From contig JBIJBO010000002.1 of the NCBI GenBank assembly GCA_044345215.1, positions 272 to 64,271 of the forward strand: DNA of 64,000 nt, read 5' to 3'. Position numbers and translations under genes: made by a program. Shown piece after piece: positions 8,439 to 62,303 of this stretch. The notes beneath the pieces are model-generated. The model did no database searches, had not been told where the DNA came from, and saw nothing but the letters and a program-made list of their open reading frames with translations. How positions within the stretch are numbered: the stretch's first letter is position 1; each line of letters starts with the position of its first letter. The DNA is from Prosthecobacter sp. Its GTDB lineage: Bacteria; Verrucomicrobiota; Verrucomicrobiia; Verrucomicrobiales; Verrucomicrobiaceae.

Positions 8439-12575
<4,137 letters not shown>

Positions 12576-12607
12576 GCCCGCACGCCTGTTCAGCGTTGAA
12601 AACCTTG

Positions 12608-12640
12608 AAAACCCCGCCGGCAGCCCCGGCGGGGTTTTTT
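12608..12640 (+). terminator. Rho-independent terminator of the rpoBC transcription unit
   Basis: AAAA-CCCCGCCGG-cagcc-CCGGCGGGG-TTTTTT starts about 33 nt after the rpoC stop. It has a 9-bp GC stem, a 5-nt loop and a T6 tail. Confidence 0.85.
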
Positions 12641-12665
12641 CGGTGCATTTGGCAACGGACCCGCT

Positions 12666-13235: not shown

Positions 13236-13291
13236 TTCCCGGCGCCGCCGGCATTTGCCCCGGCGCGCTCTTGTGCTTGATTGGCGGCTTC

Positions 13292-15619: not shown

Positions 15620-15642
15620 CGGGACGGGCGATTGCGCCGGCC

Positions 15643-42186: not shown

Positions 42187-45100
42187 GTTTCAGTCCCCGA
42201 CGGTTCCTTTCGAACTTCCAACCTCCCTTGCACGTGAAATCCAGCATTTCCACATTTCTGATGGCAGCCTTGCTGCTTTTCAGCCTGAGTCAGGCCGCGA
42301 AGGCGCAGTCAAACCTGCCGGTGATTGAGCGCCAGCCTTACCGCATACTCTACAACACCGACCATGACCCCGTCGGGGAGTGGCCGCCGATCGGCATCAA
42401 CCCACCTCGCGTGGATGCCAGTTCGCTGGTCAATCTCGGCTGTGCCATCGACCTGCGGATTGTTGCCACCGGCAACAACCTCACCTACCAGTGGAAGAAG
42501 TCGGGTGTCAACATTCCTGGAGCCACAAACTCACGGCTCTTTGTCAATGTCACGTCACTGCTCGATGCAGGACGTTATCAATGTGAGGTCAAAAACCTTT
42601 TTGGCGCAGTGCTCAGTTTGCCAGTGCGCATGGGGGTCGTGGATATTTCCCCCAGCGACAGAATCATCGCAGCCAGCGCTACGGCCAAGGTGACCCTTGC
42701 GACCTCGTTCAGATTTCCAACAACCAGCGGTGGTTTCAAATACCAGTGGTTCAAAATGCTGGGTGCGACGCCGGATCTCAACACAGATGTCATGCTGGCC
42801 AACGATCTCACCTACGGGGGAGCCGCCACGCCTTCCCTGGAGATCAAGGCGCCCTCAGTGGCGCCTGCGGGAAGTTATTATTGCCGGATCACCGCTTACA
42901 ATACCTTCATGATCAGCGGGCTGCGCAATCTGGCCATCGTGCCGTCGCCTGAGCCCGCCATGGTGCAACAGGGTTCCCCGCTTCAGTTCTCGGTGACACC
43001 GACAGGGCCCGCTTCTGTCATCAACAACCTGTCATACCAGTGGAACAAGGCCGGTGTGGCCATTCCTGAAGCGACGGATTCCAGCTTCATCATTGGCACG
43101 GCTGAGATCGCGGATGCAGGCCTCTACTCGCTTACGGTCATTCACCCGACGCTTGGTTCGGTGACCACACCGTCGGTTGCCGCTTTTGTCGTGGATCCGC
43201 CGGTCAGTCGAGTCGCAGTGACCGGAGGCATGAGAGCCGTCCTTGCTGCCCCGCCTGCGCTCAACCGAGCCCAGACCTACCAGTGGTTTCGCGATGGCTC
43301 GCCTCTCGTCGACGGCGGTCGCATCACCAATGCAACTGCAGCCAGTTTGACGATTGCCCTCGCCCAAGCTGCCGATGCGGGCGAATACGAGTGCCGTGGC
43401 ACGCTGTTTGGAGATACCGTGGTGGTTGCGCGTCCAGTCCTGATCGTCACGCCAGCGCCTCAATCCAAGGTGATCGCACTGGGCGAGACCCTGCAGCTGG
43501 AAGTACAGCCCGAGTATGGAGGTTCGAACTTTGTCGATCCGGCGCTCTTCGGCTTCCAGTGGGTCAAGGGCACGGGAACGACGGCCACAGTGCTTGCAGG
43601 TGAGACCAACTCGACACTGACGATTGCCAGCACCACAGCCGCTGACTTTGGACAATTCAACTGTCGAGTCAGCTACAACGGCAGCCCCCCACTGGCCACA
43701 CCACCCGCCAACGTTGCAATTGTCAATACTGCTTTGCAGGTCGTCAACGTGAATGCCGGCAGGAGTGCCACGCTGAGTCCGCTCGTTTTTGCTCCCCGCG
43801 GACTCCTCTTCCAGTGGAATTTCCAGGGTGCTCCCCTGTTGAACAGCGCGAAACATGCGGGTGTCACCTCCAGCAGGCTTGCCGTGAACACGGCCAGCGT
43901 GGCCGATGCAGGGATCTACGAGTGCGAGATGAGCTTTGCCGGAGGCACAAGTGCAACGGCCCCAGTGCAGCTGGTCGTTTATTCGAGACCCGAGATCGTC
44001 AATCTGGAGTTTCCTCCTGCCATTGTCGGGGGTGTTTTCAATTACGCGATCACGGTCAGCAACGATCCACTCTATGCCGCGACCGGCTATGATGCCGCCT
44101 CGCTGCCCAGAGGACTGGTGATCAACAAAAGCACCGGTGTCATCAGCGGTATTCCGAGTGCTTCAGGAACCTTCAACATCCTCGTGAGCGCGAGGAATGC
44201 AGTCGGCACCACCACTCAGCCAGCCACGCTCACGGTGAGTTCCTTGCCGTCCCGATTTGTGGGGCGTTTTGTTGCCGCCCTGCCGCGAATGCCTGCGGGT
44301 GAGTTTGGAGCGCTTGGGGGACGCCTCGACATGACCATCGCCTCGACTGGCACGACTTCGGGCAGCTTGACAGTGGGAGGCACCAGGTTGGCCTTCAAGG
44401 GATCCATCGCCGTTGCCGGCACGGATCCCCTGACCGCGACGGCCACCGCCACGATCAATGTCGAACGAAGTGGTGGCAATTTGAGCCTCAGCTTCAACCT
44501 TCAGGACGACGACTATCTTTACGACGGACAGATCAGCGGTGCCGGCAACACCCTCAACTTCAGCGGTTGGCGTGCAGTTTACACGGTTGCACAACCTCCG
44601 AGCGCCCTTGCGGGGGTCTACAACATTGGACTCTTCCCTCAAGAGCCAGATGCGCCCGCGCTTCCCCATCCAGAGGGAACCGGCTACGCCACTCTCAGCA
44701 TCAGCGGCAGTCCGACCTCCGATCTCGCGGCTGGAAACTACAGCATGGTGACCCTGCTGCCCGATGACACGGCCTTCACGACCGCGGCTTTTGTGGGACC
44801 TGCCGGTGAATTGCTTGCCTATGGCTATCTCTACGGCACGGCGGGCGGCGGTTCCGTTGTCAGCAGCGGCACCAGCCTCAACATCAATGCCTTGGCGGCT
44901 GGCAAGCCGGTGACGGGCAACCTTGACTGGTCTCGTCCGGCCACTGCCACTCGCCGCTACAAGGAAGGTTTTGGTCCTTTGACCCTCTCTGCCTCCGGAG
45001 GACTTTACACGGCTGGCCCTCGCCTGCTTGCGGCTGAATCTGCCGAACTGACCTTCGAAGGTGGCGGCATTGAACTTGCCGCGCTCAACCCGAATGCAGT

Positions 45101-45425
45101 CTTCACGATTGGCATGGGCACTGCGCTGCCCGTACGCACAGCTCCGAATGCTGCACTCACCGCCTTCAGGGCAGTTGCCCCGATCAGCGGGCTTTTCAAC
45201 GGCAGCTTTGTGCTGGCAGATGACAACCCGACGACACCACTGGCGAACCCAACGGAATACCGGCGGACGGTTAACTTCAAGGGACTCGCCGTGCCGATCA
45301 ATGGCACGCAGGTGGGTGTTGGATTCTTCATCCTGCCTCAGATACCAACTTCGAATCCGCTCACCACAACATCGAATTCGCCGGAACTCTCCGGCAGCGT
45401 GTTTTTCGATCCGGTGCTGAACTGA
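42183..45425 (+). CDS. Large secreted protein: six Ig (I-set-like) repeats + He_PIG/cadherin-like Ig domain + about 395-aa uncharacterised C-terminal region
   Basis: Internal ATG (MSFSPRRFL...FLMAALLLFSLSQAAKAQ) of track ORF 42159..45425, 1080 aa. Its ATG overlaps the upstream stop (ATGA at 42183-42186). The repeats carry [YF]QW.K.G..I.GAT...L.I......DAG.Y.C. The following domain reads PPAIVGGVFNYAITVSNDPL...LPRGLVINKSTGVISGIPSASGTFNILVSARN. Confidence 0.82.
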   Translation: MSFSPRRFLSNFQPPLHVKSSISTFLMAALLLFSLSQAAKAQSNLPVIERQPYRILYNTDHDPVGEWPPIGINPPRVDASSLVNLGCAIDLRIVATGNNLTYQWKKSGVNIPGATNSRLFVNVTSLLDAGRYQCEVKNLFGAVLSLPVRMGVVDISPSDRIIAASATAKVTLATSFRFPTTSGGFKYQWFKMLGATPDLNTDVMLANDLTYGGAATPSLEIKAPSVAPAGSYYCRITAYNTFMISGLRNLAIVPSPEPAMVQQGSPLQFSVTPTGPASVINNLSYQWNKAGVAIPEATDSSFIIGTAEIADAGLYSLTVIHPTLGSVTTPSVAAFVVDPPVSRVAVTGGMRAVLAAPPALNRAQTYQWFRDGSPLVDGGRITNATAASLTIALAQAADAGEYECRGTLFGDTVVVARPVLIVTPAPQSKVIALGETLQLEVQPEYGGSNFVDPALFGFQWVKGTGTTATVLAGETNSTLTIASTTAADFGQFNCRVSYNGSPPLATPPANVAIVNTALQVVNVNAGRSATLSPLVFAPRGLLFQWNFQGAPLLNSAKHAGVTSSRLAVNTASVADAGIYECEMSFAGGTSATAPVQLVVYSRPEIVNLEFPPAIVGGVFNYAITVSNDPLYAATGYDAASLPRGLVINKSTGVISGIPSASGTFNILVSARNAVGTTTQPATLTVSSLPSRFVGRFVAALPRMPAGEFGALGGRLDMTIASTGTTSGSLTVGGTRLAFKGSIAVAGTDPLTATATATINVERSGGNLSLSFNLQDDDYLYDGQISGAGNTLNFSGWRAVYTVAQPPSALAGVYNIGLFPQEPDAPALPHPEGTGYATLSISGSPTSDLAAGNYSMVTLLPDDTAFTTAAFVGPAGELLAYGYLYGTAGGGSVVSSGTSLNINALAAGKPVTGNLDWSRPATATRRYKEGFGPLTLSASGGLYTAGPRLLAAESAELTFEGGGIELAALNPNAVFTIGMGTALPVRTAPNAALTAFRAVAPISGLFNGSFVLADDNPTTPLANPTEYRRTVNFKGLAVPINGTQVGVGFFILPQIPTSNPLTTTSNSPELSGSVFFDPVLN
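42315..43982 (+). repeat. Six tandem Ig-like domain repeats (about 85-105 aa each) within the 1080-aa protein
   Basis: YQW/FQW anchors at residues about 102, 187, 285, 366, 458 and 543. Each is followed about 25-30 aa later by DAG.Y.C / DFGQFNC. Confidence 0.75.
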
Positions 45426-48130: not shown

Positions 48131-48313
48131 GGGCTTGGAGGTCACGGGTAGCCGGCGAGGGGCACATGCCACTTTCACCGGAGCGTGGGATGCGGAGTCT
48201 GGCACAGGAGCTCCGTCCGTCAACGATTTTCTCCCGACCCGAGGCGGTGCTGTGACGCCATCGCGCCACCCTTCCGGGCTGGCGATCGGGCGCGGAAGCT
48301 GTCAGACTCGGGG

Positions 48314-50260
48314 ATGCCGGTTCCTCGTGCCCTCCACCCGTTGCTCGCCGGGCTGCTGCTGCTGGCCACCGGCTGTGGTGGGCTTGACCGGCTGCTCACG
48401 AACGCCGACCTTGAACGGCTGACGGGGGAAATTGCCGCCCTGGAAGCCCGGCTCGCCCGCCTGCCGGCGCTGCGGGTCGCGGCCCAGCCGCATCAGCGTC
48501 TCGGTTTTCACGGCCGCAGCGGTGATCCCGCCTGGATCGAGCTTGAGCTGGATCGCGAGGCCCCGCCCGATGAACTGGTGCTGTTCCCGGCGCGCACCGC
48601 CGATCCGGCCGGCGGCGACACCGCCAGCGGCTTTCCCTCCGCACTGCGCGTGCTCGGAGCCGGGGGGGGCGCGTCCTTGCGACTTCTGGCCGAATGGCGG
48701 CAGCCTGCGGACGATGCCGTGTTCGACCCGCCCTTCCTGCGCCTGCCGCTGTCTGCAGCACCCCTGCGGCGGCTGCGTTTGGAAGTGCCTGGCGGCCAGG
48801 CGCGTGGCCGCGGCCGTTTTTTTGCCTTGGGCGAGGTGGTCCTGCTTGCCGGTGGCATCAATCTCGCCCTGGGCGCGCCGGTGCGTGCCAGTGAGGGCCT
48901 TCTCAACCCGCCGCGTTGGCAGCCGGAGAACCTCACCGACGGCTTCCTGTGGTTCGGCAACCTGCAGGGCCTGAGTGCCGCGAGTGCCAACGGCTACCAC
49001 AGCCGCATCGAGCTGTCGCCGCAGGCCGTGCCCAAATGGGTTGAGGTGGATCTCGGCGCGGAAGTCGCCGTCGACGAGGTGCGCCTGGTGCCGGCCCGGC
49101 CGGTCGATTACGCCGATGTCGCCGGGTTCGGTTTTCCAGCGCGCTATCGGGTCGAATTGCTGCAGGAAACCGGCCCCGGACTTCGCCTGCGTGCAACTCA
49201 GGACGATTCACCCAATCCCGGGGATGCGGCCGTTTGCCTGCCGGCAGGCGGGCAGGCGGCCAGGCGGGTAAGGGTCACTGCCGAACGGCTGTGGCAGCGC
49301 AGCCAAGACTACATCTTCGCCCTCGCCGAGCTGCAGGTTTGGGCGGGCGGCCGCAACCGGGCGCTGAGGGCGGAGGTCATCTGTTCCGATCAGGTCGACG
49401 CCAGATCCTGGTCGCCGCAGGCCCTGGTGGATGGCCATGACAGCCGCCGTGAATTGTTGTCCTGGACGGATTGGCTGGCGCAGACCAGCCAGCGCGAAAC
49501 GCTCATCCGTTCACTGAGCCAGGCCCGTCAGCGACTCGGGGTGCTTGAGCACCAACGTCAGCGCGCCCTGGTGCATGGCTTGCTTCTCAGCGGAGGTCTG
49601 GTTTTGCTGATCACCGCGGCCCTGCTCGGTTGGATGCACCACCGTCAGAAAATCGCCCGCCAGCACTTGCGTGAGCGCCTGGCCCGCGACCTGCACGATG
49701 AGATTGGTTCCCAGCTCAGCCACCTGTCCCTGCTCGCCGGTCAGGGGGATGCTGCCGCCTTGCCCAAGATTGCCGCCGGCACCCGCGAGTTGCAGCAGGT
49801 CATGCGCGATCTGGTCTGGCTGCTGGCACCCGGCGGCGGCGATGCCCGTGACTTCACCGCCCGACTGCGGGCGACGGCCAGGAAGTGGCTTGAGCCGGCG
49901 GTGAACGAGGTGCAGGTCGAATTGAACGGACTGCCTCCCGAGGGTCAGTTGCCGCTCGACTGGGCGCGCGAGATTCTGCTGTTTGTTCGCGAGGCACTGA
50001 CCAATGCCGCCCGTCACAGCCGGGCCCGGCGTGCCGCGGTTCGTCTGGAATGGCGAGCGGAGACCTTTGTCTGGGTGCTGGAGGACGACGGCATCGGGTT
50101 TGACGAACAGGCAGCCGATTTTGTCGCCGGTTGCGGTTTGGACAATCTCCGCCACCGGGCCGGCGTTTTACAGGGACAGGTCGTCATCACCTCCCGCCCC
50201 GGCAGTGGCACTCGCATCGAATTGATCTGTCCGCATCCCCATGAACCTCTGGCTCATTGA
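48314..50260 (+). CDS. Sensor histidine kinase (HisKA_3/HATPase) with lipoprotein-type signal and two extracytoplasmic discoidin-like modules
   Basis: Internal ATG (MPVPRALHPLLAGLLLLATGCGG, a lipobox) of track ORF 48185..50260, 648 aa. Two sensor modules of about 150 aa each (GFPSALRV...FFALGEVVLLAGG and GFGFPARYRVE...YIFALAELQVWAGG), one TM helix (LLLSGGLVLLITAALLGW), the H-box LARDLHDEIGSQLSHL, the N-box REALTNAARHS and the G-box EDDGIGF. Confidence 0.88.
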   Translation: MPVPRALHPLLAGLLLLATGCGGLDRLLTNADLERLTGEIAALEARLARLPALRVAAQPHQRLGFHGRSGDPAWIELELDREAPPDELVLFPARTADPAGGDTASGFPSALRVLGAGGGASLRLLAEWRQPADDAVFDPPFLRLPLSAAPLRRLRLEVPGGQARGRGRFFALGEVVLLAGGINLALGAPVRASEGLLNPPRWQPENLTDGFLWFGNLQGLSAASANGYHSRIELSPQAVPKWVEVDLGAEVAVDEVRLVPARPVDYADVAGFGFPARYRVELLQETGPGLRLRATQDDSPNPGDAAVCLPAGGQAARRVRVTAERLWQRSQDYIFALAELQVWAGGRNRALRAEVICSDQVDARSWSPQALVDGHDSRRELLSWTDWLAQTSQRETLIRSLSQARQRLGVLEHQRQRALVHGLLLSGGLVLLITAALLGWMHHRQKIARQHLRERLARDLHDEIGSQLSHLSLLAGQGDAAALPKIAAGTRELQQVMRDLVWLLAPGGGDARDFTARLRATARKWLEPAVNEVQVELNGLPPEGQLPLDWAREILLFVREALTNAARHSRARRAAVRLEWRAETFVWVLEDDGIGFDEQAADFVAGCGLDNLRHRAGVLQGQVVITSRPGSGTRIELICPHPHEPLAH

Positions 50261-50867
50261 AGACCACCGTGCCTTGCGCGAATCGCTTGTGCTCGCCCTG
50301 CAACAAGCCCGGCCGGGCTGGAGCGTGCAAGCCTACGCCCGCGCCGGGGATGCGCTGAGCGCAGCGGCGGGTGGTGCGGCGGCCGATGTCCTCCTGCTCG
50401 ATCTCGGCCTGCCCGGCCTTGGTGGCCTGGAGGCGCTGCCGTTGTTGAAATCCGCCCTGCCGGTTGCCGAGGTCGTGGTCTTCACGGTCTTCGACGATGC
50501 CGACAAAATCTATGCCGCCATTTGTGCCGGTGCCTCGGGCTACCTGCTCAAGTCGGAGCCGGTTGAGACCTTGGTGCGCGCGGTCGAGGAAGTCCGCGAG
50601 GGCGGTTCGCCCATGCACCCGCAGGTGGCACGCAAGGTTCTTGACCGGTTCAGCGGCCGGCGGCCGGCGCCGGAATCCATCCTGTCCGAACGCGAGCGCG
50701 GGGTGCTGCAGGCCATGGCCGATGGGCTGACAAAAAAGGAGATTGCCGCCCGGCTCGACCTGAGCGTGCACACGGTCGACAACTACCTCCGTCGCATTTA
50801 TCGCAAGCTGCATGTCAACACCCTGCAGGGCGCGGTGGCGAAGGCGTTCAAGGACGGGCTTCTGTGA
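50241..50867 (+). CDS. Response regulator, NarL/FixJ (LuxR HTH) family
   Basis: 208 aa, with REC (LWLIEDH...DVLLLDLGLPGLGG...GASGYLLK) and an HTH (LSERERGVLQAMADGLTKKEIAARLDLSVHTVDNYLRRIYRKL). It overlaps the kinase 3' end by 20 nt. Confidence 0.92.
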   Translation: MNLWLIEDHRALRESLVLALQQARPGWSVQAYARAGDALSAAAGGAAADVLLLDLGLPGLGGLEALPLLKSALPVAEVVVFTVFDDADKIYAAICAGASGYLLKSEPVETLVRAVEEVREGGSPMHPQVARKVLDRFSGRRPAPESILSERERGVLQAMADGLTKKEIAARLDLSVHTVDNYLRRIYRKLHVNTLQGAVAKAFKDGLL

Positions 50868-50915
50868 CGTGATCCCGTGACAGGAAAATCCGCGCGCACT
50901 GCCGTATTCAAAATC

Positions 50916-53843
50916 ATGATGCTTCGCACCGGTCTCCTTTTGCTGGCCGCCACCACCGCGGTCGCCGCGCCCGATTTTGAGCGCGAGGTGGCGCCCATCC
51001 TGGAGTCGCGCTGCATGGCCTGCCACGACGCGGCCCAGGCCGAGGGGGAGGTCCGCCTCGACACCCGCGAGGCGGTGCTTGAACATCTGGTGCCCGGCCG
51101 ACCCGAGGCCAGCGCCCTCATCGACCAGGTCAGCGGCGCCAGGCCGGCCATGCCCAGGAAAGAAAAACCGCTGACCACCGCCCAAGTCGGGATTCTGCGC
51201 GCCTGGGTGCAGGCGGGCGCGCCCTGGCCGGAGACGCGGGTGCTTGCCGACAAACCCGCGCGTGACCTGAACTGGTGGAGTCTGCGGCAGATTCCAAGCC
51301 CGAAGTCGCCGAATCCCGAGGGCCATCCGGTTGATGCGTTCCTCGAGGCGAAGCTGGCCGGGCGAGGCCTGGCCCCGGGGCCCGAAGCCGATTCCGTGAC
51401 TCTGGTGCGCCGGCTCACCTACGATCTCACCGGCCTGCCACCCGACCCGGCGGATCTGCCGGAGCCTTCGGTGCGGCTCACCGACGCGACCTGGGAGGCA
51501 CTCGTTGACCGTCTGCTCGCCCGTCCGGCCTTTGGCGAGAAGTGGGGGCAGCACTGGCTCGATCTGGTCCGCTATGCCGAGACCCACGGCTATGACAAGG
51601 ACAAGCCCAGGCTGAACGCCTGGCCCTACCGCGATTACGTCATCCGCAGCTTCAACAGCGACAAGCCCTACGACCGCTTTGTTCAGGAACAGATCGCCGG
51701 CGATGCGCTGTTTCCCGGGCAGCCCGACGGTGTGCTCGGCCTCGGATTTCTCGCCGCCGGTCCGTGGGATTTCATCGGCCACACCGAGGTCGGCGAGGGC
51801 AAGGTCGACGGCCGCATCGCCAAGCACCTGGATCGCGATGAAATGGTCTCCGCCGTCTTCAACGTCTTCACCAGCACCACGGTGCAGTGCGCCCAATGCC
51901 ACCACCACAAGTTCGATCCGGTGACGATGCCGGATTACTATCGTCTGCATGCCGTCTTCGCCGCGGTCGACCGTGCCGACCGGGTGTATGCCGGGTTGCC
52001 GCCGGATCAGGAACAACGCCGCAACGCCCTGCTGGCGCGCATCAACACCCTCAAGGCCGAGCAGACGAAGCTGAGCGGCGAAGCCAAGCGCGAGCTCGGC
52101 GCGCGCACCTCCGGCATCGACCGCCGGCTCGCCGAGTTGAAGGCGAAACACGGTTCGCCGCTGCGCCCGCAGTATGGCTGGCACAGCCAGGTGGCGAAGG
52201 CCCAGGACACGGTGAAGTGGGTGCAGATGGATCTCGGCAAAGCCCAGGGCGTGCAGCAGGTGCGGCTCATCCCCGCCTACGACACCTTCAACGGCATCGG
52301 CGCCGGCTTCGGTTTTCCAGTCCGCTACAGGGTCGAGGCCTGCAACGACCCGGAATTCAGACAAGGCGTTCGACTCATCCACGACGCCACCGGCACCGAC
52401 CAGCCCAACCCTCGCCACGGTGAGATCGTGCTGGATGTCGGCGGGGATCCCGTGCGCCATCTGCGTGTCACCGCCACCCGGCTCGCGCCGCGTCAGAATG
52501 ACTTCATCTTCGCCCTCGGTGAACTGCAGGCGATCGGCGGTGAGAACCATGACAACCTCGCCCCGGGGGCCGTGGTCAGTGCCCTCGACAGCATTGAGGC
52601 GGGGCCGCGCTGGGGCCGTGCCAACCTGACGGATGGCATCTGGCATCGCGAGATCGGCGACCCGGTCGCGCTCGCTGAACTGCGCGAGCTGGAGTCCCAA
52701 AAGACGGCGATCGAGCGCGAACTCGCTGATCCAGCGCGCGAAGCCCGACTTGCCGTGCTCGCCAAGGAACTGGCCGCCCTGAATCCCGAATTGGCAGCCT
52801 ATCCCAAGGGGGAGCTCGTCTATGCCGCCGCGACCGATTTTACGGTTCAGGGTCGCTTCCTCGCCACCGGTGGCAAGCCTCGCGAGATCCGCCTCCTGCA
52901 GCGCGGCGACATCCGCGCGCCAGGCGATCTCATGAGGCCCGGGCTGCCGCCGCTCTGGCCGGGGGTTGAGGAGCAGTTCCACCTGCCGCCGCAAGCGACC
53001 GAGTCCGCTGCACGTGCGGAACTGGCGCGGGCCGTGACTTCACCCGAAAACCCGCTGTTCTGGCGCAGCATCGTCAACCGGCTCTGGCTCTGGACGTTTG
53101 GCCAGCCGCTCGTCGGCACCCCGAATGATTTCGGCCGCATGGGCCAGCCGCCCACGCATCCGGAACTGCTGGACTTCCTCGCCGGCCTTTTGCGCGACGA
53201 TTCCCGGCACTCGCTGAAGAGCCTGGTGCGCCTGCTCGTCACCAGCCGCGCCTATCGCCGTTCCTCCGGGCACAACATCGACAACGCCCGGCTCGACGCC
53301 AACAACGAGCTGCTCTGGCGTGCGAACCGCCGCCGTCTCAGCGCCGAGGAATTTCGCGACAGCCTGCTGGCTGCCGCCGGTGTCCTGCACCTGGAACCGC
53401 GCGGCGGGCCGTCCTTCCAGGACTTCGTGATCGAGAAGCCCCAGCATTCGCCGCACTACCAGTACCACCTGTTTGATCCGAACGATGCCGCCGGCCACCG
53501 CCGCAGCGTCTACCGCTTCATCGTGCGCAGCCAGCCGCAACCCTTCCTCACCAGTCTCGACTGTGCCGACCCCTCGCAGAGTGTGCCGCGGCGCGATGAA
53601 TCCACCACCGCCCTGCAGGCGCTGGCGCAGTGGAACAACCGCCTCGTCGAGGCCATGTCGATCCGGTTTGGCGAACGCCTGGCGCGTGCGGCGGATCCCG
53701 TCGAGGCCGCCTGCCAAACCGCCCTCGGCCGGGCCCCAACCGCGGACGAACGCAGCGTGCTCACCAGCCATCTGCAGGTCCACGGATCCGCCGCGCTCGC
53801 CCGTGTGGTCTTCAACCTCAACGCCTTCGTCTACCTCGACTGA
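50916..53843 (+). CDS. PSCyt1 (CxxCH) - DUF1549 - discoidin-like insert - DUF1553 protein
   Basis: Internal ATG (MMLRTGLLLLAATTAVAAPDFEREVAPILESRCMACHD...) of track ORF 50877..53843, 975 aa. DUF1549 strings are VDAFLEAKLA, LVRRLTYDLTGLPP, WGQHWLDLVRYAETHGYDKD and CAQCHHHKFDP. The central module is KWVQMDLG...GFGFPVRYRVE...FIFALGELQAIGG. The DUF1553-type C-terminus has NPLFWRSIVNRLW, RRRLSAEEFRDS and FNLNAFVYLD. Confidence 0.9.
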   Translation: MMLRTGLLLLAATTAVAAPDFEREVAPILESRCMACHDAAQAEGEVRLDTREAVLEHLVPGRPEASALIDQVSGARPAMPRKEKPLTTAQVGILRAWVQAGAPWPETRVLADKPARDLNWWSLRQIPSPKSPNPEGHPVDAFLEAKLAGRGLAPGPEADSVTLVRRLTYDLTGLPPDPADLPEPSVRLTDATWEALVDRLLARPAFGEKWGQHWLDLVRYAETHGYDKDKPRLNAWPYRDYVIRSFNSDKPYDRFVQEQIAGDALFPGQPDGVLGLGFLAAGPWDFIGHTEVGEGKVDGRIAKHLDRDEMVSAVFNVFTSTTVQCAQCHHHKFDPVTMPDYYRLHAVFAAVDRADRVYAGLPPDQEQRRNALLARINTLKAEQTKLSGEAKRELGARTSGIDRRLAELKAKHGSPLRPQYGWHSQVAKAQDTVKWVQMDLGKAQGVQQVRLIPAYDTFNGIGAGFGFPVRYRVEACNDPEFRQGVRLIHDATGTDQPNPRHGEIVLDVGGDPVRHLRVTATRLAPRQNDFIFALGELQAIGGENHDNLAPGAVVSALDSIEAGPRWGRANLTDGIWHREIGDPVALAELRELESQKTAIERELADPAREARLAVLAKELAALNPELAAYPKGELVYAAATDFTVQGRFLATGGKPREIRLLQRGDIRAPGDLMRPGLPPLWPGVEEQFHLPPQATESAARAELARAVTSPENPLFWRSIVNRLWLWTFGQPLVGTPNDFGRMGQPPTHPELLDFLAGLLRDDSRHSLKSLVRLLVTSRAYRRSSGHNIDNARLDANNELLWRANRRRLSAEEFRDSLLAAAGVLHLEPRGGPSFQDFVIEKPQHSPHYQYHLFDPNDAAGHRRSVYRFIVRSQPQPFLTSLDCADPSQSVPRRDESTTALQALAQWNNRLVEAMSIRFGERLARAADPVEAACQTALGRAPTADERSVLTSHLQVHGSAALARVVFNLNAFVYLD

Positions 53844-53847
53844 CGCC

Positions 53848-55278
53848 ATGCAACGTCGCGATTTTCTTGCCTCCTTCGCCGGTCTCGCCCTCGCCGACCT
53901 GCTGCGCCGCGACGGCGCGCTTGCCGCGCCCGGAGTGCTGCGCAACGGCCTGCACCACCCGCCGCGAGCAAAGCGCGTCATTCAGCTCTTCATGGCCGGT
54001 GCGGCCAGCCATGTGGATTTGTGGGATCACAAGCCGTTGCTCAAGCAGAAGGACGGTCAGCCTTGGGATCCGGGCGAGAAGGTGGAGCTCTTCCAGAGCA
54101 CGCCAGGCGCCTGCTTGGCCAGCCCCTGGACCTTTCGACCCCATGGCGAGTCCGGCAAGCACCTGAGCGACATCGTCGCGCCGCTCGGGGCCGTGGTTGA
54201 TGACCTTGCCTTTCTGCACAATGTCGTTGGCAAGACCGGCGTGCACAGTCAGGGCACCCTGCTGCAGACGACCGGTTTCCAACTGCCGGGTTTCCCCAGC
54301 GCCGGCTCCTGGGTCAGCCATGCGCTTGGCAGCGAGAGCGACAACCTGCCGTCCTTCGTGGTCCTGCCCGACCACCGAGGTCTCGCTTCGAACGGCGCCA
54401 AGAACTGGGCCAGCGCGTTTCTGCCGGCCCAACATCAGGGCACGGTCATCCGCCCGGGCAGCGCCCAGCCCATCGCCGACCTGCAGCCGCCGTCCTCGGT
54501 GACGCCGGCGGCCGACCACGCGGGACTTGAGGTTCTCGCCCGGCTCAATGCGGCGCACGCGCAGGACCGCGTCGGCGACGACCGTCTGCAGGCGCGGGTG
54601 CGCAGTTATCAGCTGGCCGCCGCCATGCAGCTCAGCGCCACGGATGCCCTCGACGTCTCGCGCGAGCCGCGTCACATCCGCGAGCTCTACGGCCTTGCAC
54701 CCGAGGGGCCGGGCGTCAATGACACGACGATCAATGTCAGGGCCGAGACCGAGTTCTTCGGCCGCAAATGCCTGGTGGCCCGGCGCCTCCTGGAACGCGG
54801 GGTTCGCTTCGTGCAGATCTGGAGTGGCAATGACAACGGCTTCCCGCGCCGCAACTGGGACAGCCATGAGGACGTCCGGCGTGACCATGAGCCGCTCGCT
54901 CTTGGCATGGCGCGCGGCACCGCGGCGCTGATCCAGGACCTGAGGCAGCGCGGCATGCTCGAGGACACCGTCATCCTCTGGACCACCGAGTTTGGCCGCA
55001 TGCCCTGTTCGCAGGGCAGCAGGGGGCGCGACCACAATCCTTTTGTCTTCACCAACTGGCTCTGCGGCGGCGGTGTCAAGGGCGGTACCTACGGTGAGAG
55101 CGACGTCTGGGGCTTCCGCCCGGCCGATCCCGCCCGCGCCACCAGTGTCTATGACATCCACGCGACCGTGCTGCATCTGCTCGGCATCGACCACGAACGC
55201 CTTACCGTCCGCCACAACAGCATCGACCGCCGCCTCACCGATGTGCACGGGCATGTGTTGAACGATCTGCTGGCCTGA
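53848..55278 (+). CDS. DUF1501 family protein (sulfatase/alkaline-phosphatase fold) with twin-arginine signal
   Basis: Internal ATG (MQRRDFLASFAGLALADLL) of track ORF 53473..55278, 476 aa. It starts 4 nt after the upstream stop. Strings: VIQLFMAGAASHVDLWDHKP, FLHNVVGKTGVHSQG, WDSHED, TEFGRMP and RDHNPFVF. Confidence 0.92.
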   Translation: MQRRDFLASFAGLALADLLRRDGALAAPGVLRNGLHHPPRAKRVIQLFMAGAASHVDLWDHKPLLKQKDGQPWDPGEKVELFQSTPGACLASPWTFRPHGESGKHLSDIVAPLGAVVDDLAFLHNVVGKTGVHSQGTLLQTTGFQLPGFPSAGSWVSHALGSESDNLPSFVVLPDHRGLASNGAKNWASAFLPAQHQGTVIRPGSAQPIADLQPPSSVTPAADHAGLEVLARLNAAHAQDRVGDDRLQARVRSYQLAAAMQLSATDALDVSREPRHIRELYGLAPEGPGVNDTTINVRAETEFFGRKCLVARRLLERGVRFVQIWSGNDNGFPRRNWDSHEDVRRDHEPLALGMARGTAALIQDLRQRGMLEDTVILWTTEFGRMPCSQGSRGRDHNPFVFTNWLCGGGVKGGTYGESDVWGFRPADPARATSVYDIHATVLHLLGIDHERLTVRHNSIDRRLTDVHGHVLNDLLA

Positions 55279-55441: not shown

Positions 55442-56083
55442 GTGCCCTCCAAGCCCCTGTCCATTCTCCTGGCCGATGATCACGCCGTGGTCCGCAATGG
55501 CTTTCGCCACATCCTGGCGGCGCAGTGGGACATGGAGGTGATTGGCGAAGCTTCGAACGGTCGTGAGGCAGTCGAGATGGCGGAGCAACTCAAGCCGGAT
55601 GTTGTGGTGATGGATGTGACCATGCCCGAGCTGAACGGCATCGAGGCCTCGCGCCGGATTGCCAAAACCTGTCCGCGCACCCGCATCCTGGCGCTGTCGA
55701 TGCACAAGGACGCGGTTTACGTGCGCGAAATCCTGCGCGCCGGCGCCCACGGCTACCTGCTCAAGGATTCCAGCCAGAGCGACTTTCTTTCGGCGGTTCG
55801 CGCGGTCGCTGTCGGCAAGGGCTGGCTCAGTCCCGAGATCTCCGACGCCGTGCTCGAGGATTACCGCAAGCACGTGACGAATCCGGTCGACCTGCTGTCC
55901 ACGCGCGAGCGCGAGGTGCTGCAGATGATTGCTGAAAGCAAGACTAACAAGGAGATCGCCACGGCGCTGCACCTCAGCGTTTACACGGTTGAGGCCCATC
56001 GCGCTCGCATCATGGAAAAACTCAACCTGCATTCGATCGGCGAGCTGGTACGATTCGCCATGCGCAACGGCCTCATTGACTGA
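55442..56083 (+). CDS. Response regulator, NarL/FixJ (LuxR HTH) family
   Basis: 213 aa, GTG start. REC strings are ILLADDHAVVRNG, DVVVMDVTMPELNG and GAHGYLLKD. The HTH is LSTREREVLQMIAESKTNKEIATALHLSVYTVEAHRARIMEKL. Confidence 0.93.
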   Translation: MPSKPLSILLADDHAVVRNGFRHILAAQWDMEVIGEASNGREAVEMAEQLKPDVVVMDVTMPELNGIEASRRIAKTCPRTRILALSMHKDAVYVREILRAGAHGYLLKDSSQSDFLSAVRAVAVGKGWLSPEISDAVLEDYRKHVTNPVDLLSTREREVLQMIAESKTNKEIATALHLSVYTVEAHRARIMEKLNLHSIGELVRFAMRNGLID

Positions 56084-56093
56084 GGATCATCCG

Positions 56094-57419
56094 ATGGCGG
56101 ACGAATGGTTCATCCTTGGCAGGCGTGTCGACGAGCGAACGGTGCTCACCGGCCTCGTGGCCGGCTTTGGTGCGGTCATGCTGCTGCTGGGGGCTGCCGG
56201 TTGGCTGGCTGTCAGCGAGGGACGCTCGATCCGCCTCAATGCCGAGCAGCTCATGCGCGAGCAGGTGCTCGTCACCCGCCTGCTGCACGAGGCCCAGGTG
56301 GAGGAGGATGCTCTCGCGCTGGCCCTGCACCGCCTGACCCGTTCGGTCGATCCGGCGGAGCGTGCGGCACAGCTGCAGGAACTTGAACAGGCTGACCGGG
56401 CCATTGCCCGGCTCGCCGACCATGCCCGCATGACGGCACAGGCGGCACCCTGGCATCGCCTGGCCGCCGCAACCCGCGGCTTTTCCGAGCAGGTCCGCCA
56501 GGCATTCGCGGTCGAGGGTGGGATCTCACGCGAGCGCATGGAGGACCTGTTTTCCTCGCACGACGAAGTGGTGCGATTGATCCACGGGCTCATTCTCGAA
56601 AGCACGGACCACCTCGAACGGCTGGATCTGCGCCTCGCCGGCCACCTGCGCGCCCTCGCCGGCAAATCGGCTTTGCTGCTCGGTTCAGCGCTCGTTTTGT
56701 CCGGTGCCTGCGCGGCCGGCACGATCGCCTACGTGCGTGCCAGCATCCGCCGGATCGAGGGGCAAACCGATGAACTCAACCGTGTCTCCTGGCACATGCT
56801 GCAGAGCCAGGAGGAGGCGGCGCGGCGCTTCAGCCATGAACTCCACGACGAACTCGGTCAGTCGCTGGCCGCAGTGCGCGCCAACTTGGTGGCGCGCACC
56901 TGCACCGGCGATGCCGATCGACGGGCCGACTGCCTGCAACTGGTCGATGCCGCCATCGCCAACGTCCGTGAGTTGTCGCAGTTGCTGCGACCGGTGATCC
57001 TGGACGACTTTGGTCTCGACGCCGGTTTGCGGTGGCTGACCGATGGCTTCGCGCAGCGCACGCGCCTGCAGGTGGATTACGAGTCCGATCTCGACACGCG
57101 TCTGCACAGCGACCTCGAGACGCACCTGTTCCGCATCGGCCAGGAGGCGCTGACCAACGTCGCCCGTCATGCCGGTGCCTCGCGAGTCAGCCTGCGGCTG
57201 CATGCCGGGGAGGGGCGCGTGCGTCTGGAGATCGAGGACGACGGCCGCGGTCTGCCGGCGGATCAGGCGAGCGCCCGTCCCGGGCTGGGGCTGACTGGCA
57301 TGCGCGCCCGAGCCCGGCAGTGTGGTGGCACGCTGGAAATCCAGCCGGTTGTGCCCCACGGGCTCGCTCTGCGGGTGGAGGTGCCTCTGCGCGGCGCCGA
57401 GCCGGAGGAGCGGGAGTGA
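56094..57419 (+). CDS. Sensor histidine kinase (HisKA_3/HATPase) with helical periplasmic sensor
   Basis: Internal ATG (MADEWFILGRRVDERTVLTGLVAGFGAVMLLLGAAGWLA) of track ORF 55929..57419, 441 aa. It has two TM helices around an all-helical loop of about 190 aa, the H-box FSHELHDELGQSLAAV, the N-box QEALTNVARHA and the G-box EDDGRGL. It starts 10 nt after the regulator gene. Confidence 0.88.
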   Translation: MADEWFILGRRVDERTVLTGLVAGFGAVMLLLGAAGWLAVSEGRSIRLNAEQLMREQVLVTRLLHEAQVEEDALALALHRLTRSVDPAERAAQLQELEQADRAIARLADHARMTAQAAPWHRLAAATRGFSEQVRQAFAVEGGISRERMEDLFSSHDEVVRLIHGLILESTDHLERLDLRLAGHLRALAGKSALLLGSALVLSGACAAGTIAYVRASIRRIEGQTDELNRVSWHMLQSQEEAARRFSHELHDELGQSLAAVRANLVARTCTGDADRRADCLQLVDAAIANVRELSQLLRPVILDDFGLDAGLRWLTDGFAQRTRLQVDYESDLDTRLHSDLETHLFRIGQEALTNVARHAGASRVSLRLHAGEGRVRLEIEDDGRGLPADQASARPGLGLTGMRARARQCGGTLEIQPVVPHGLALRVEVPLRGAEPEERE

Positions 57420-57489: not shown

Positions 57490-58476
57490 ATGGAGTTTCC
57501 CAGACCAGCCCGGGAGGTGGGCGGATTCTTCAGGGCTCGCGCCCTCGCACTTGCAATTGGATCGGTCCCGCCGATTCAATCCGGCTTGAGCACTTCTGCG
57601 CCGGCTGCGGTTCCCGCCTTCGATTTTCGTCGGGGCGCAGGCTGGATGCTGCTGTCGCTGACGGGATTCACCGGCATGGCCCTGCTGGTGCGTCACCTTG
57701 GTGCCGAGCGTGGCATCAGCGCCTGGTGGGCGCTGTTTTTTCGCGCCAGCGTCGGCATGGCGGTTGTTTGGCTGGTCTTTGCACCCGGTGGCCGGGTGAG
57801 TTTTCGACGGGCCCTGTGCGGGCGGCTGCTGGTTACACGCGGCGTCATCGGGGCGCTGGGCACGGCGGCCTATTACATCACGCTGCCCTTGCTGGGCGCC
57901 GGCAAAGCCACCCTGATTGGCAACACTTGGGCGGTTTGGGCGGCACTGCTGGCCGCCTTCCTGCTGCGCGAGCCGCTAGGCTTGCGCAGGCTCGCCGGCA
58001 TCCTGCTCGCGGTTGCCGGTGTCGCCCTGCTCACCGGCCTGCACGGCGGCGACTTCAGTCGTGTCGGCACCGCCGAGGCCATTGCCCTGGCCGGAGCCTT
58101 CGCCGCGGCGCTGGTGGTGGTCGTCATCCGCCAGCTCACCCTCACCGAGACCAGTGGCACGATCTTTGCCTCGCAGTGCCTCTATGCCGGGCTGCTGGCG
58201 CTGCCCTTTTTGTTCAGTCTCCCGGTGCCGGGTGCGCTGGACGTGGCCCTGCTCACCGCCGCCGCCCTGCTGGCGGCGCTGGGCCAGTTGGCGATGACCG
58301 AGGGTTTTCGTTACCTGCCGGTGAGCACCGGTGGCGCCTTTCAGATGCTGCTGCCGCTCGTGCTGACGCTTGCCGGCGTGCTGTTTTTTGCCGAGCCCTT
58401 CTCGCTGGTGCAGGGAGCGGGCGGCGTCTGCATTTTGGCCGGCTGCCACCTGACCGTCACGCAGCGCCGCAGATGA
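57490..58476 (+). CDS. EamA/DMT-superfamily transporter
   Basis: 328-aa track ORF. About 10 TM helices form two EamA-like halves (LLREPLGLRRLAGILLAVAGVALL and FAEPFSLVQGAGGVCILAGC). ATG 57646 (MLLSLTGFTG...) is a plausible shorter start. Confidence 0.78.
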   Translation: MEFPRPAREVGGFFRARALALAIGSVPPIQSGLSTSAPAAVPAFDFRRGAGWMLLSLTGFTGMALLVRHLGAERGISAWWALFFRASVGMAVVWLVFAPGGRVSFRRALCGRLLVTRGVIGALGTAAYYITLPLLGAGKATLIGNTWAVWAALLAAFLLREPLGLRRLAGILLAVAGVALLTGLHGGDFSRVGTAEAIALAGAFAAALVVVVIRQLTLTETSGTIFASQCLYAGLLALPFLFSLPVPGALDVALLTAAALLAALGQLAMTEGFRYLPVSTGGAFQMLLPLVLTLAGVLFFAEPFSLVQGAGGVCILAGCHLTVTQRRR

Positions 58477-58482
58477 AGCGGA

Positions 58483-59427: not shown

Positions 59428-59579
59428 GCGTGGTCAATGGGAACGCCGCCGGCTGGCTTGGCTTTTCAAGCGCATGATGTGCGGCATCGGCATTTTGGAA
59501 CTGGGCGGCGCTGCGGATTTTTTCCAAGCCAGCCTACACATCTTTTTGATTCCCGGCCGCCTGCGTGCATTGGTGCGCC

Positions 59580-62263: not shown

Positions 62264-62303
62264 CTGGCGGGGGGCTGCGGCCCGCGGACAGTGACATGCC
62301 CCG

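What the first reader, a model, noticed from the sequence alone, without database searches (positions are those of the whole stretch)
48491..52640. Sensor kinase and neighbouring DUF1549/1553 protein share the same discoidin-like module
The kinase ectodomain holds two copies of a module of about 150 aa, at about nt 48491-48943 and 48986-49438. The same module is inserted between DUF1549 and DUF1553 in the downstream protein, at about nt 52167-52640.
- By eye the match is strong: KWVEVDLGAEVAVDEVRLVPA...GFGFPARYRVE...RRVRVTAERLWQRSQDYIFALAELQVWAGG in the kinase against KWVQMDLGKAQGVQQVRLIPA...GFGFPVRYRVE...RHLRVTATRLAPRQNDFIFALGELQAIGG in the 975-aa protein.
- Both are followed by an NLTDG/LVDG string.
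A sensor and its putative target sharing a ligand-binding domain suggests both recognise the same, probably glycan-like, extracellular molecule. The kinase also combines a lipobox (LLLATGC) with a later TM helix, an unusual topology.
Basis: seen in the sequence. Interest (0 to 1): 0.8.

Follow-up and report, generated by a model that had tools for sequence, protein, structure and literature searches.

The report
Discoidin-sensor kinase wired to PSCyt/DUF1501 genes
A bacterial sensor kinase carries two copies of a discoidin (F5/8 type C) domain that also sits inside the neighbouring, functionally unknown PSCyt/DUF1553 protein, and the two are tied together by conserved gene order and a shared DNA operator, which gives a practical way to ask what this abundant protein system does.

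Summary
The kinase holds two copies of a ~150-aa module and the DUF1549/DUF1553 (PSCyt2/PSD1) protein holds a third. M2 and M3 are 42% identical (E 1e-30, z=44 against shuffles). There are no other copies in the 64 kb window.

The module is a divergent F5/8 type C (discoidin) domain.

The pairing is not chance:
- In reference genomes, 44 of 53 kinase loci (83%) from Verrucomicrobiota and Planctomycetota carry the same cassette: kinase, NarL-type regulator, PSCyt1-PSCyt2-discoidin-PSD1, DUF1501.
- I found a conserved 19-20 bp palindrome, TGTSMCG-N6-CGYSRC. It lies upstream of the kinase (48251-48269) and upstream of the PSCyt gene (50863-50882). It recurs at both positions in many loci.

Limits:
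- The three module classes are ancient paralogues with no recent sharing. Same-locus identity is 39.6% and cross-locus identity is 39.8%.
- Only about 17% of PSCyt-discoidin genes sit beside the kinase.
- A shared ligand is plausible but untested, and it would be periplasmic rather than extracellular.
- Discoidin domains in PSCyt proteins were already reported. I found no report of the kinase link or the operator.

Verdict: a new variant of a known kind, of moderate interest.

The parts
48251..48269 (.). Operator site 1: imperfect palindrome TGTGACGCCATCGCGCCAC, about 45 nt upstream of the kinase ATG
   Evidence: Found by unbiased 8-mer enrichment upstream of kinase genes. The pattern TGTSMCGN6CGYSRC gives 4 matches (3 sites) in the window against 0.31 expected. 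With one mismatch allowed, 41 loci have a site upstream of the kinase.
48314..50260 (+). Sensor histidine kinase, 648 aa from ATG 48314 (the ORF is open from 48185). Order of parts: signal peptide/lipobox, helix, two discoidin modules, stalk helix, one TM, HisKA_3, HATPase_c
   Evidence: Pfam HisKA_3 and HATPase_c. The 98%-identical homologue P0091 is also 648 aa. AF2 with a 116-sequence alignment gives mean pLDDT 87.8, and the top Foldseek hits are DesK.
48314..48376 (+). N-terminal signal peptide with a lipobox-like LLLATGC (Cys21)
   Evidence: Read from the sequence. The Cys is kept in 30 of 116 homologues; the rest look like plain signal peptides.
48491..48943 (+). Discoidin module M1, the degenerate copy. 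It lacks the GFGFP, NPG, R and D motifs.
48986..49438 (+). Discoidin module M2, the copy closest to the PSCyt module
   Evidence: 42% identity to M3, E 1e-30. Weak direct Pfam F5_F8_type_C hit (E 0.003).
49565..49636 (+). Single transmembrane helix (aa 418-441), inside one continuous predicted helix spanning aa 384-476
49670..50236 (+). Transmitter core: HisKA_3 (phospho-acceptor His461, nt 49694) and HATPase_c
   Evidence: Pfam. His461, Asn564 and the G-box glycines are invariant in 116 homologues.
50241..50867 (+). NarL/FixJ-type response regulator: receiver domain with Asp54 plus a GerE helix-turn-helix. Overlaps the kinase gene by 20 nt.
   Evidence: Pfam Response_reg and GerE. NCBIfam NarP/NarL-like, below the equivalog cut-offs..
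50863..50882 (.). Operator site 2: near-perfect palindrome TGTGACGTGATCCCGTGACA. It spans the regulator's stop codon and lies about 35 nt upstream of ATG 50916.
   Evidence: Matches the pattern on both strands. The same element sits directly upstream of the PSCyt-discoidin gene in 24 loci (25 exact hits against 0.13 expected).
50916..53843 (+). PSCyt1-PSCyt2-discoidin-PSD1 protein. The ORF is open from GTG 50877, but the likely start is ATG 50916 (MMLRTGLLLLAATTAVAA, a signal peptide).
   Evidence: Pfam PSCyt1, PSCyt2 and PSD1 all above threshold. CxxCH motifs at aa 46 and 338. The operator occupies 50863-50882, which argues against the 50877 start.
52167..52640 (+). Discoidin module M3, inserted between coiled-coil segments that link PSCyt2 and PSD1
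53848..55278 (+). DUF1501 protein with a twin-arginine signal (MQRRDFL). Starts 4 nt after the PSCyt stop codon.
   Evidence: Pfam DUF1501, E 4e-131. Start codon. 58-80% identical across cassettes from both phyla.

Best explanation
This is a conserved four-gene regulon of PVC bacteria.

The kinase is anchored by one TM helix. In the periplasm it displays two discoidin (F5/8 type C) domains on a helical stalk.

The second domain, M2, is an ancient paralogue of the discoidin domain inserted in the exported haem protein PSCyt1-PSCyt2-D-PSD1. That protein works with the Tat-exported, probably sulfatase-like DUF1501 protein.

Proposed mechanism:
1. A periplasmic molecule, most likely a carbohydrate or another small polar ligand, is recognised by both M2 and M3.
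2. Binding changes the DesK/NarX-type kinase activity.
3. The kinase phosphorylates the NarL-type regulator.
4. A regulator dimer binds the 7-6-7 palindromes in front of the kinase gene and in front of the PSCyt gene.
5. This sets expression of its own operon and of the PSCyt-D/DUF1501 machine that acts on that molecule.

Shown here: module homology, discoidin family assignment, an intact kinase and regulator, export signals, conserved synteny, and a shared operator.

Inferred: that the regulator binds the operator, the sign of regulation, and that M2 and M3 bind the same ligand.
For: - Homology.
- Family assignment: homologues pass the Pfam PF00754/PF22633 thresholds. AF2 predicts two all-beta domains at pLDDT around 90.
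- Synteny: 44 of 53 kinase loci with enough flanking sequence have PSCyt2-D-PSD1 within 10 kb. In 34 it follows the regulator directly and in 7 it is divergent. DUF1501 usually follows. Taxa include Brevifollis, Prosthecobacter, Chthoniobacter, Gemmata and Planctomycetaceae.
- Specificity: within 1.34 Mb of related loci the module occurs only in these two protein types.
- Operator: 48 exact pattern hits in 1.34 Mb, of which 37 lie in the narrow zones upstream of the kinase (12) or of PSCyt-D (25, against 0.13 expected). Where PSCyt-D lies 0.8-8.7 kb from the kinase (L033, L037, L061, L063, L040), the site stays with it.
- The operator tracks the kinase: it is present in 4 of 9 kinase-linked and 2 of 62 kinase-less PSCyt-D loci (Fisher p = 0.0017).
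- Tight operon in the window: a 20-nt overlap and a 4-nt gap between genes.
- M2 and M3 share polar residues that M1 lacks: R277/R483, E281/E487, D298/D508, N301/N511, R329/R539, D332/D542, D359/D571.
Against: - No ligand is known, and discoidin domains elsewhere bind lipids, peptides or proteins as well as sugars.
- Same-locus M2-M3 identity equals cross-locus identity (39.6% vs 39.8%, p = 0.27). So there is no sign of lineage-specific co-adaptation of the two modules.
- Only 9 of 54 PSCyt-D loci in a PSCyt-centred metagenome sample have the kinase. The machine usually works without this sensor.
- Both operators lie only 35-45 nt from the start codons, so activation cannot be told from repression.
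- No sigma-70-like promoter was found.
- The window's own modules score below Pfam's threshold (18.2 bits against 28.2).
Confidence: 0.5

Rival explanations
1. Partner sensing. The kinase's discoidin domains bind no free ligand. Instead they contact the PSCyt-D/DUF1501 complex, for example by taking the place that M3 occupies or by pairing with M3. The kinase would then report the load or state of the machine, much as BceS senses through BceAB.
For: All three proteins are exported to the same compartment. He et al. class F5_F8_type_C in PSCyt proteins as a protein-protein interaction domain (PMC5615132). Both M2 and M3 are followed by a long helix, and the BLAST alignment runs about 40 aa past the module. 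PSCyt variants with two discoidin copies match the kinase's whole ectodomain, including the post-module helix (E 1e-8).
Against: There is no same-locus excess similarity or co-variation. In 9 of 53 loci the kinase/regulator pair has no PSCyt-D nearby. There is no direct evidence of contact, and multimer modelling was not available.
Confidence: 0.15
2. Co-regulation without a common ligand. The modules share ancestry only and have diverged in specificity. The kinase senses another periplasmic or envelope cue, and simply controls PSCyt-D/DUF1501 as an output.
For: The duplication is ancient. M1, M2 and M3 are three clean classes, and every module's nearest neighbour belongs to its own class. M2 and M3 are only about 40% identical. 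In some loci other genes are inserted between the regulator and PSCyt-D, such as PSCyt3-type/DUF1552 (L033, L036, L040, L053). In L016 a PSCyt3-type gene carries the operator.
Against: A set of polar loop residues is conserved jointly in M2 and M3 across two phyla but lost in M1. That pattern is what a retained common binding site would predict.
Confidence: 0.2
3. Uninformative adjacency. PSCyt/DUF1501 pairs and discoidin domains are so common in these genomes that a kinase next to one means nothing.
For: PSCyt/DUF1501 pairs are highly expanded in PVC genomes (PMC3542564). Several loci contain extra PSCyt pairs without a discoidin domain. Most PSCyt-D genes lack the kinase.
Against: 83% of kinase loci carry specifically the discoidin-bearing PSCyt variant in a fixed position. 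The window has only one PSCyt/DUF1501 pair and only three module copies. A shared operator lies in front of both genes.
Confidence: 0.03
4. The palindrome is not the cassette regulator's site. It could bind another transcription factor or act as an RNA hairpin.
For: Binding was not tested. The sites lie close to the start codons. Site 2 could form a weak 7-bp stem.
Against: The regulator is the only DNA-binding protein conserved in the cassette, and GerE-family dimers bind palindromes (established knowledge). Conservation is at the level of sequence (TGT..CG / CG..ACA), with half-site mismatches that would break an RNA stem rather than compensate for each other. Rfam finds nothing there.
Confidence: 0.12

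Closest known systems
PSCyt1/PSCyt2/PSD1 + DUF1501 gene pairs of Planctomycetes and Verrucomicrobia (Kamneva et al. 2012, PMC3542564; He et al. 2017, PMC5615132)
   Same: Same domain families, same gene pair, and the same Tat signal on DUF1501. Both papers note that some PSCyt proteins carry an F5_F8_type_C domain.
   Different: Kamneva et al. (PMC3542564) contains no mention of a histidine kinase, two-component system or response regulator. The PSCyt passages I read in He et al. (PMC5615132) mention none either. Neither describes a sensor with the same module or an operator. The function of the pair remains unknown.
RsgI anti-sigma factors of Clostridium thermocellum, whose extracellular carbohydrate-binding modules match those of the cellulosomal enzymes they control (recalled from my own knowledge, not checked here)
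   Same: The sensor carries the same kind of binding module as the proteins it regulates, so inducer and substrate coincide.
   Different: That system signals through an anti-sigma/sigma-I pair in a Gram-positive bacterium with known polysaccharide ligands. Here the system is a HisKA_3 kinase with a NarL-type regulator, the ligand is unknown, and the target is not a known glycoside hydrolase.
Hybrid two-component systems of Bacteroides polysaccharide utilisation loci (recalled from my own knowledge)
   Same: A periplasmic sensor encoded beside the machinery it induces, with a type I topology (signal peptide, periplasmic domain, one TM).
   Different: HTCS sensors are beta-propeller or PBP-like, with a fused regulator and an AraC output. 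No domain is shared with the regulated proteins.
DesK/DesR and NarX/NarL (HisKA_3 kinases with GerE-type regulators)
   Same: The transmitter core and the regulator belong to the same type. The top Foldseek hits are DesK structures. Pfam finds HisKA_3 and GerE. NCBIfam finds NarQ/NarP-like matches.
   Different: The sensor domain is entirely different: tandem discoidin rather than a four-helix bundle or TM-only sensor. Scores are far below the NCBIfam equivalog cut-offs, so this is not an orthologue of any named system.
F5/8 type C (discoidin) / CBM32 domains
   Same: Same motifs (W.Q.DLG near the start, FAL.E near the end), a predicted beta-sandwich, and Pfam matches in homologues.
   Different: This is a divergent subfamily that I found only in these kinases and in PSCyt proteins. 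It has its own GFGFP.RF.VE and NPG motifs. The window's copies fall below Pfam's threshold, and there is no significant sequence match to any solved structure.

Membership tests
F5/8 type C (discoidin) domain, Pfam PF00754 / PF22633 | Match to the Pfam profile at or above the gathering score | tested here: inconclusive
   The window kinase scores 18.2 bits (E 0.003) against a cut-off of 28.2, and M3 gives no hit. Direct homologues pass: P0211 76.7 bits, P0231 56.0, P0002 38.9. About half of the listed kinase homologues carry precomputed PF00754/PF22633 hits.
F5/8 type C (discoidin) domain, Pfam PF00754 / PF22633 | Beta-sandwich fold of about 150 aa | tested here: inconclusive
   AF2 (pLDDT about 90) predicts two all-beta domains at aa 64-215 and 218-381. 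The Foldseek PDB list was filled by the kinase core. The BFVD list includes F5/8 type C proteins at ranks 19 and 50, but the aligned regions are not shown.
F5/8 type C (discoidin) domain, Pfam PF00754 / PF22633 | Binds a ligand through loops at one end of the barrel | not testable with these tools
   The residues shared by M2 and M3 lie in the loops between predicted strands. Model coordinates could not be inspected.
HisKA_3-type sensor histidine kinase (NarX/DesK type) | H-box histidine in HisKA_3, plus HATPase_c with its N and G boxes | tested here: met
   Pfam HisKA_3 25.1 bits (cut-off 24) and HATPase_c 34.6 bits (cut-off 26.4). His461, Asn564, Gly593 and Gly608 are invariant in 116 homologues. 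DesK structures are the top structural hits.
NarL/FixJ-type response regulator | Receiver domain with the phospho-acceptor Asp, plus a GerE/LuxR helix-turn-helix | tested here: met
   Response_reg 59.5 bits and GerE 60.7 bits. Asp54 lies in LLLDLGLPG.
PSCyt1-PSCyt2-PSD1 protein (DUF1549/DUF1553) | All three Pfam domains in order, with a CxxCH haem motif | tested here: met
   PSCyt1 36.7, PSCyt2 244.4 and PSD1 249.4 bits. CMACH at aa 46 and CAQCH at aa 338.
DUF1501 (PF07394) | Full-length Pfam match and a twin-arginine signal | tested here: met
   438 bits covering profile positions 1-390 of 390. The N-terminus is MQRRDFL. Kinship to sulfatases is only hinted at: profile against PDB gives E 0.1-0.8, with sulfatases as the top five hits.
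Bacterial lipoprotein | Lipobox [LVI][ASTVI][GAS]C at the end of a signal peptide, conserved among relatives | tested here: inconclusive
   LLLATGC fits only a relaxed lipobox, with Ala at position -3. The Cys is present in 30 of 116 homologues, all close relatives.

The most novel reading that the evidence does not exclude
The discoidin kinase and its operator form a dedicated substrate-sensing circuit for one PSCyt/DUF1501 machine. The accessory domains found in other PSCyt proteins (Laminin_G_3, Big_2, CBMs) would likewise define substrates, each read by a matching sensor. If so, this cassette would be the first place where the chemistry of the whole PSCyt/DUF1501 superfamily can be tested, through inducer screens with operator-reporter fusions and ligand screens with M2 and M3. 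A stronger variant is that the kinase senses the machine by direct discoidin-to-discoidin contact.
Probability: 0.2. Interest if true: 0.75.

Novelty: new variant of a known kind. Interest (0 to 1): 0.55.

Why it matters
PSCyt (DUF1549/DUF1553 and relatives) and DUF1501 proteins are among the most expanded protein families of unknown function in Planctomycetes and Verrucomicrobia. Nothing is known about what they act on (PMC3542564, PMC5615132).

This cassette links one well-defined subtype to three usable handles:
- a sensor that carries the same binding module;
- a regulator;
- a short operator.

Together these provide reporter constructs, candidate ligand-binding domains to express, and culturable hosts: Prosthecobacter fluviatilis (L051), Brevifollis gellanilyticus (L037) and Chthoniobacter flavus (L044).

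It is also a clear bacterial example of a sensor domain and a domain in the regulated protein descending from one ancestor.

Tried and rejected
- Single-sequence AF2 of the ectodomain was unusable (pLDDT 40.5). It was replaced by a run with a 116-sequence alignment.
- Foldseek of the full-length model against PDB returned only kinase cores in the top 50. The model could not be trimmed, so no structural neighbour for the ectodomain was obtained from PDB.
- The module profile against PDB sequences gave no significant hit. The best were CBM32 and neuropilin b domains at E 0.06-0.5.
- Recent domain exchange or gene conversion between kinase and PSCyt is rejected. Same-locus M2-M3 identity equals cross-locus identity, and every module's nearest neighbour is of its own class.
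- Homology of the helices flanking the modules was mostly coiled-coil noise. It was significant only for the two-discoidin PSCyt variants L046 and L039.
- 'Stand-alone' discoidin proteins of 200-350 aa from the first search turned out to be pieces of frameshift-broken PSCyt-D genes.
- I first took the cassette to be obligatory for PSCyt-D. The PSCyt-centred metagenome sample showed otherwise: only 9 of 54 loci have the kinase.
- My first regular expression for the operator had one position too many and found nothing. It was corrected.
- The third pattern match in the window (63626-63644) has only one good half-site and lies inside ORFs. I treated it as chance.
- No sigma-70-like promoter was found, and terminator-like sites were no more frequent than in shuffled sequence.
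- Literature searches found no description of a discoidin-sensor kinase linked to PSCyt genes. This is absence within the library held here, not proof of absence.
Full report
**Gene content.** The region holds four tightly packed genes on the + strand.
- A sensor histidine kinase. The ORF is open from 48185, but the start is ATG 48314, giving 648 aa, the same length as its 98%-identical homologue P0091.
- A NarL/GerE-type response regulator (50241-50867), overlapping the kinase gene by 20 nt.
- A PSCyt1-PSCyt2-PSD1 protein (DUF1549/DUF1553), ending at 53843.
- A DUF1501 protein starting at ATG 53848, with a twin-arginine motif MQRRDFL.

Upstream, on the opposite strand, lie rpmE and prfA. The closest genome match is an uncultured Brevifollis (Verrucomicrobiaceae), at 81% identity over the kinase ectodomain.

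**Check of the observation.**
- M2 vs M3: 42% identity over 155 aa, E 1.4e-30.
- M1 vs M2: 36%.
- M1 vs M3: 32%.
- Alignment scores are 44, 24 and 16 standard deviations above residue shuffles.

tblastn finds no further copy in the 64 kb window. The window has only one PSCyt/DUF1501 pair. The 'NLTDG/LVDG' string is the conserved end of the module, W...L.DG.

**What the module is.** The window's kinase gives only a sub-threshold Pfam hit to F5_F8_type_C (18.2 bits, E 0.003). Its homologues pass the threshold, however. Many of the 120 listed kinase homologues carry PF00754 and/or PF22633. PSCyt relatives score 56-77 bits. Databases already name some of them 'discoidin domain-containing protein' or 'Coagulation factor 5/8 type domain protein'.

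AlphaFold2 with a 116-sequence alignment (mean pLDDT 87.8) predicts:
- an N-terminal helix;
- two all-beta domains (aa 64-215 and 218-381);
- one continuous helix from aa 384 to 476 that contains the only TM segment (aa 418-441);
- a DesK-like DHp and catalytic core.

The module is therefore a divergent discoidin subfamily with its own motifs: G.HS, KWVQVDLG, GFGFP.RF.VE, NPG, R.VR.TA..L, D.IFALAE and W...L.DG.

A profile search of 1.84 billion representative proteins finds 1,680 clusters at E <= 1e-3 and 939 at E <= 1e-10. The best 150 are mostly two-copy kinases of about 650 aa. The rest include PSCyt2-(D)n-PSD1 proteins with up to four copies (P0211) and a few large glycan-enzyme-like proteins with canonical F5/8 repeats. 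Short 'stand-alone' hits are fragments of frameshifted PSCyt genes.

**Is the adjacency meaningful?** A scan of one genome per species (GTDB) with the kinase ectodomain returned more than 546 related stretches. I analysed the best 80 loci.

Of 53 loci with a complete kinase and at least 4.5 kb of sequence on both sides:
- 44 (83%) have a PSCyt2-discoidin-PSD1 gene within 10 kb;
- in 34 of these it follows the regulator directly;
- in 7 it is divergently transcribed right next to the kinase;
- in 3 it lies further downstream.

DUF1501 usually follows. The taxa span Verrucomicrobiota (Brevifollis, Prosthecobacter, Chthoniobacter, Akkermansiaceae-labelled MAGs) and Planctomycetota (Gemmata, Gemmataceae, Planctomycetaceae). 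Within 1.34 Mb of these loci the module occurs only in kinases and PSCyt proteins.

The reverse is not true. In a PSCyt-centred metagenome sample, only 9 of 54 PSCyt-discoidin loci with at least 3.5 kb of upstream sequence have the kinase. The kinase almost always comes with this PSCyt subtype, but the subtype usually occurs without the kinase. Linkage follows the M3 tree in part: nearest-neighbour labels agree in 85 of 105 cases. It is not monophyletic.

**A shared operator.** An unbiased 8-mer count in the 400 nt upstream of the kinases gave words present in 19-21 of 72 loci and in 0-1 control regions. These words resolve into an imperfect palindrome, TGTSMCG-N6-CGYSRC(A).

The window has two copies:
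- 48251-48269, TGTGACGCCATCGCGCCAC, about 45 nt before the kinase ATG;
- 50863-50882, TGTGACGTGATCCCGTGACA, nearly perfect, spanning the regulator's stop codon and about 35 nt before ATG 50916.

The pattern has 4 matches (3 sites) in the window against 0.31 expected. The third site, at 63.6 kb, has one good half-site and lies inside ORFs, so I treated it as chance.

Across 1.34 Mb there are 48 exact hits. Of these, 12 fall just upstream of kinases and 25 just upstream of PSCyt-discoidin genes. The latter compares with 0.13 expected from the background rate. Where the PSCyt gene lies 0.8-8.7 kb from the kinase (L033, L037, L061, L063, L040), the site stays with it. The flanking intergenic DNA is not conserved.

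In the metagenome sample the site precedes 4 of 9 kinase-linked PSCyt genes but only 2 of 62 kinase-less ones (Fisher p = 0.0017). The two exceptions, L085 and L086, are the closest relatives of the window's PSCyt protein, which suggests regulation in trans there.

The pattern was derived from kinase-upstream sites, so those counts are partly circular. The PSCyt-upstream sites are largely independent: the loci outside the Prosthecobacter group, including the window's own site 2, were not used to define the pattern.

One consequence is that the annotated GTG 50877 start lies inside the operator. The true start of the PSCyt gene is probably ATG 50916, which begins a typical signal peptide.

**Ancient or recent sharing?** M1, M2 and M3 from 74, 74 and 47 loci fall into three clean classes. 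Every module's nearest neighbour belongs to its own class. Mean within-class identity is 57% for M3, 49% for M2 and 40% for M1. M2 and M3 are closer to each other (40%) than either is to M1 (33-35%).

Same-locus M2-M3 identity (39.6%) equals cross-locus identity (39.8%; Wilcoxon p = 0.27). There has been no recent exchange, no gene conversion, and no detectable lineage-specific co-adaptation.

The window's M1 belongs to a degenerate subgroup that has lost the GFGFP, NPG, R and D motifs. Residues conserved jointly in M2 and M3 but not in M1 are mostly polar and lie in loops between predicted strands: R277/R483, E281/E487, D298/D508, N301/N511, R329/R539, D332/D542 and D359/D571. From the usual discoidin topology these alternate loops lie at one end of the barrel, where ligands bind. 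That is an inference, because I could not inspect the model coordinates.

**Mechanism.**

Shown:
- The kinase is intact (His461 and the N and G boxes are invariant).
- The regulator is intact (Asp54 and the GerE domain).
- All three non-cytoplasmic components carry export signals: a signal peptide or lipobox on the kinase, a Sec signal on PSCyt-D, and a Tat signal on DUF1501.
- Synteny is conserved and both transcription units share an operator.

Inferred:
- The regulator dimer binds the palindromes, autoregulating its own operon and controlling PSCyt-D/DUF1501.
- M2 and M3 bind the same periplasmic molecule.
- The sign of regulation is open, because both sites lie close to the start codons.

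PSCyt-D carries CxxCH motifs at aa 46 and 338. DUF1501 shows only sub-threshold similarity to sulfatases. What the machine does remains unknown.

**Topology note.** The Cys is kept only in close relatives (30 of 116). More distant homologues have ordinary signal peptides. The family is best described as a type I membrane kinase (signal peptide, periplasmic domains, one TM), possibly lipid-anchored as well in this clade.

**Comparison with what is known.** Kamneva et al. 2012 and He et al. 2017 described PSCyt1/2-PSD1 plus DUF1501 pairs and noted F5_F8_type_C inserts. Kamneva et al. does not mention a kinase, a two-component system or a response regulator, and the PSCyt passages I read in He et al. 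mention none. My other searches found nothing closer.

The logic resembles sensors that carry the same binding module as the proteins they regulate, such as the RsgI anti-sigma factors of Clostridium thermocellum. It also resembles substrate-sensing hybrid two-component systems of Bacteroides. Both comparisons are from my own knowledge and were not tested here. The transmitter and regulator are of the ordinary DesK/NarX-NarL type.

**Verdict.** This is a new variant of a known kind. Interest is moderate (0.55), because it gives an experimental handle on a large family of proteins of unknown function.

Noticed in passing
window 50877-50916: The longest-ORF start of the PSCyt gene (GTG 50877) lies inside operator site 2. 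ATG 50916 (MMLRTGLLLL..., a signal peptide) is the more likely start, leaving a 48-nt intergenic region after the regulator.
   Followed up: partly
window 55442-57419: A second two-component system lies directly downstream of DUF1501. It consists of a NarL-type regulator (55442-56083) and then a HisKA_3 kinase with a weak 4HB_MCP-like sensor. The kinase ORF from 55929 overlaps the regulator, so the real start is probably later. The closest relative L003 has the same pair, but it is not conserved more widely.
   Followed up: partly
L033 12415-16248; also L036, L040, L053; L016 5753-7873 (-): In some Prosthecobacter-type loci a PSCyt3-type protein (PSCyt1-PSD3-PSD5-PSD4-PSCyt3-PSD2) follows the regulator, ahead of PSCyt-D; in L033 a DUF1552 protein comes next. 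In L016, which has no PSCyt-D, the operator sits directly upstream of such a PSCyt3-type gene. The regulon may therefore extend to the other PSCyt class.
   Followed up: partly
L039 7362-10250; L046 4086-7826; P0211, P0231: Some PSCyt2-PSD1 proteins carry two or four discoidin modules. The two-copy forms match the whole kinase ectodomain, including the helix after the second module (E 1e-8). They may be evolutionary intermediates between the kinase sensor and the PSCyt insert.
   Followed up: partly
L035 15490-18717 (and similar Prosthecobacter loci L051, L055, L064, L068, L070, L071, L074): An L-lactate permease gene and an oppositely oriented MFS_3 transporter gene are inserted between PSCyt-D and DUF1501.
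   Followed up: no
L083, L084, L042, L044: PSCyt-D, DUF1501 or kinase genes are split into several ORFs by apparent frameshifts. These are probably assembly errors or pseudogenes. They produce spurious 'stand-alone discoidin proteins' in protein databases.
   Followed up: partly
window 42159-45425: A 1,088-aa secreted protein with many immunoglobulin-like repeats (Ig_3, I-set, He_PIG) lies upstream of the housekeeping genes rlmN, prfA and rpmE. It appears unrelated to the cassette.
   Followed up: no
window 63626-63644 (-): A third match to the operator pattern (TGTCACGAAACGCCGCCAC), with only one good half-site, inside overlapping ORFs near the end of the window. Probably chance.
   Followed up: partly
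window 1-16000: GC skew is negative up to about 13 kb and positive from about 14 kb to 42 kb. This may only reflect gene orientation. A tRNA lies at 959-1031.
   Followed up: no
window 57490-63449: Downstream genes are an EamA-family transporter (57490-58476), a DUF2851 protein (60239-61669) and a family-2 glycosyltransferase (62304-63449).
   Followed up: no
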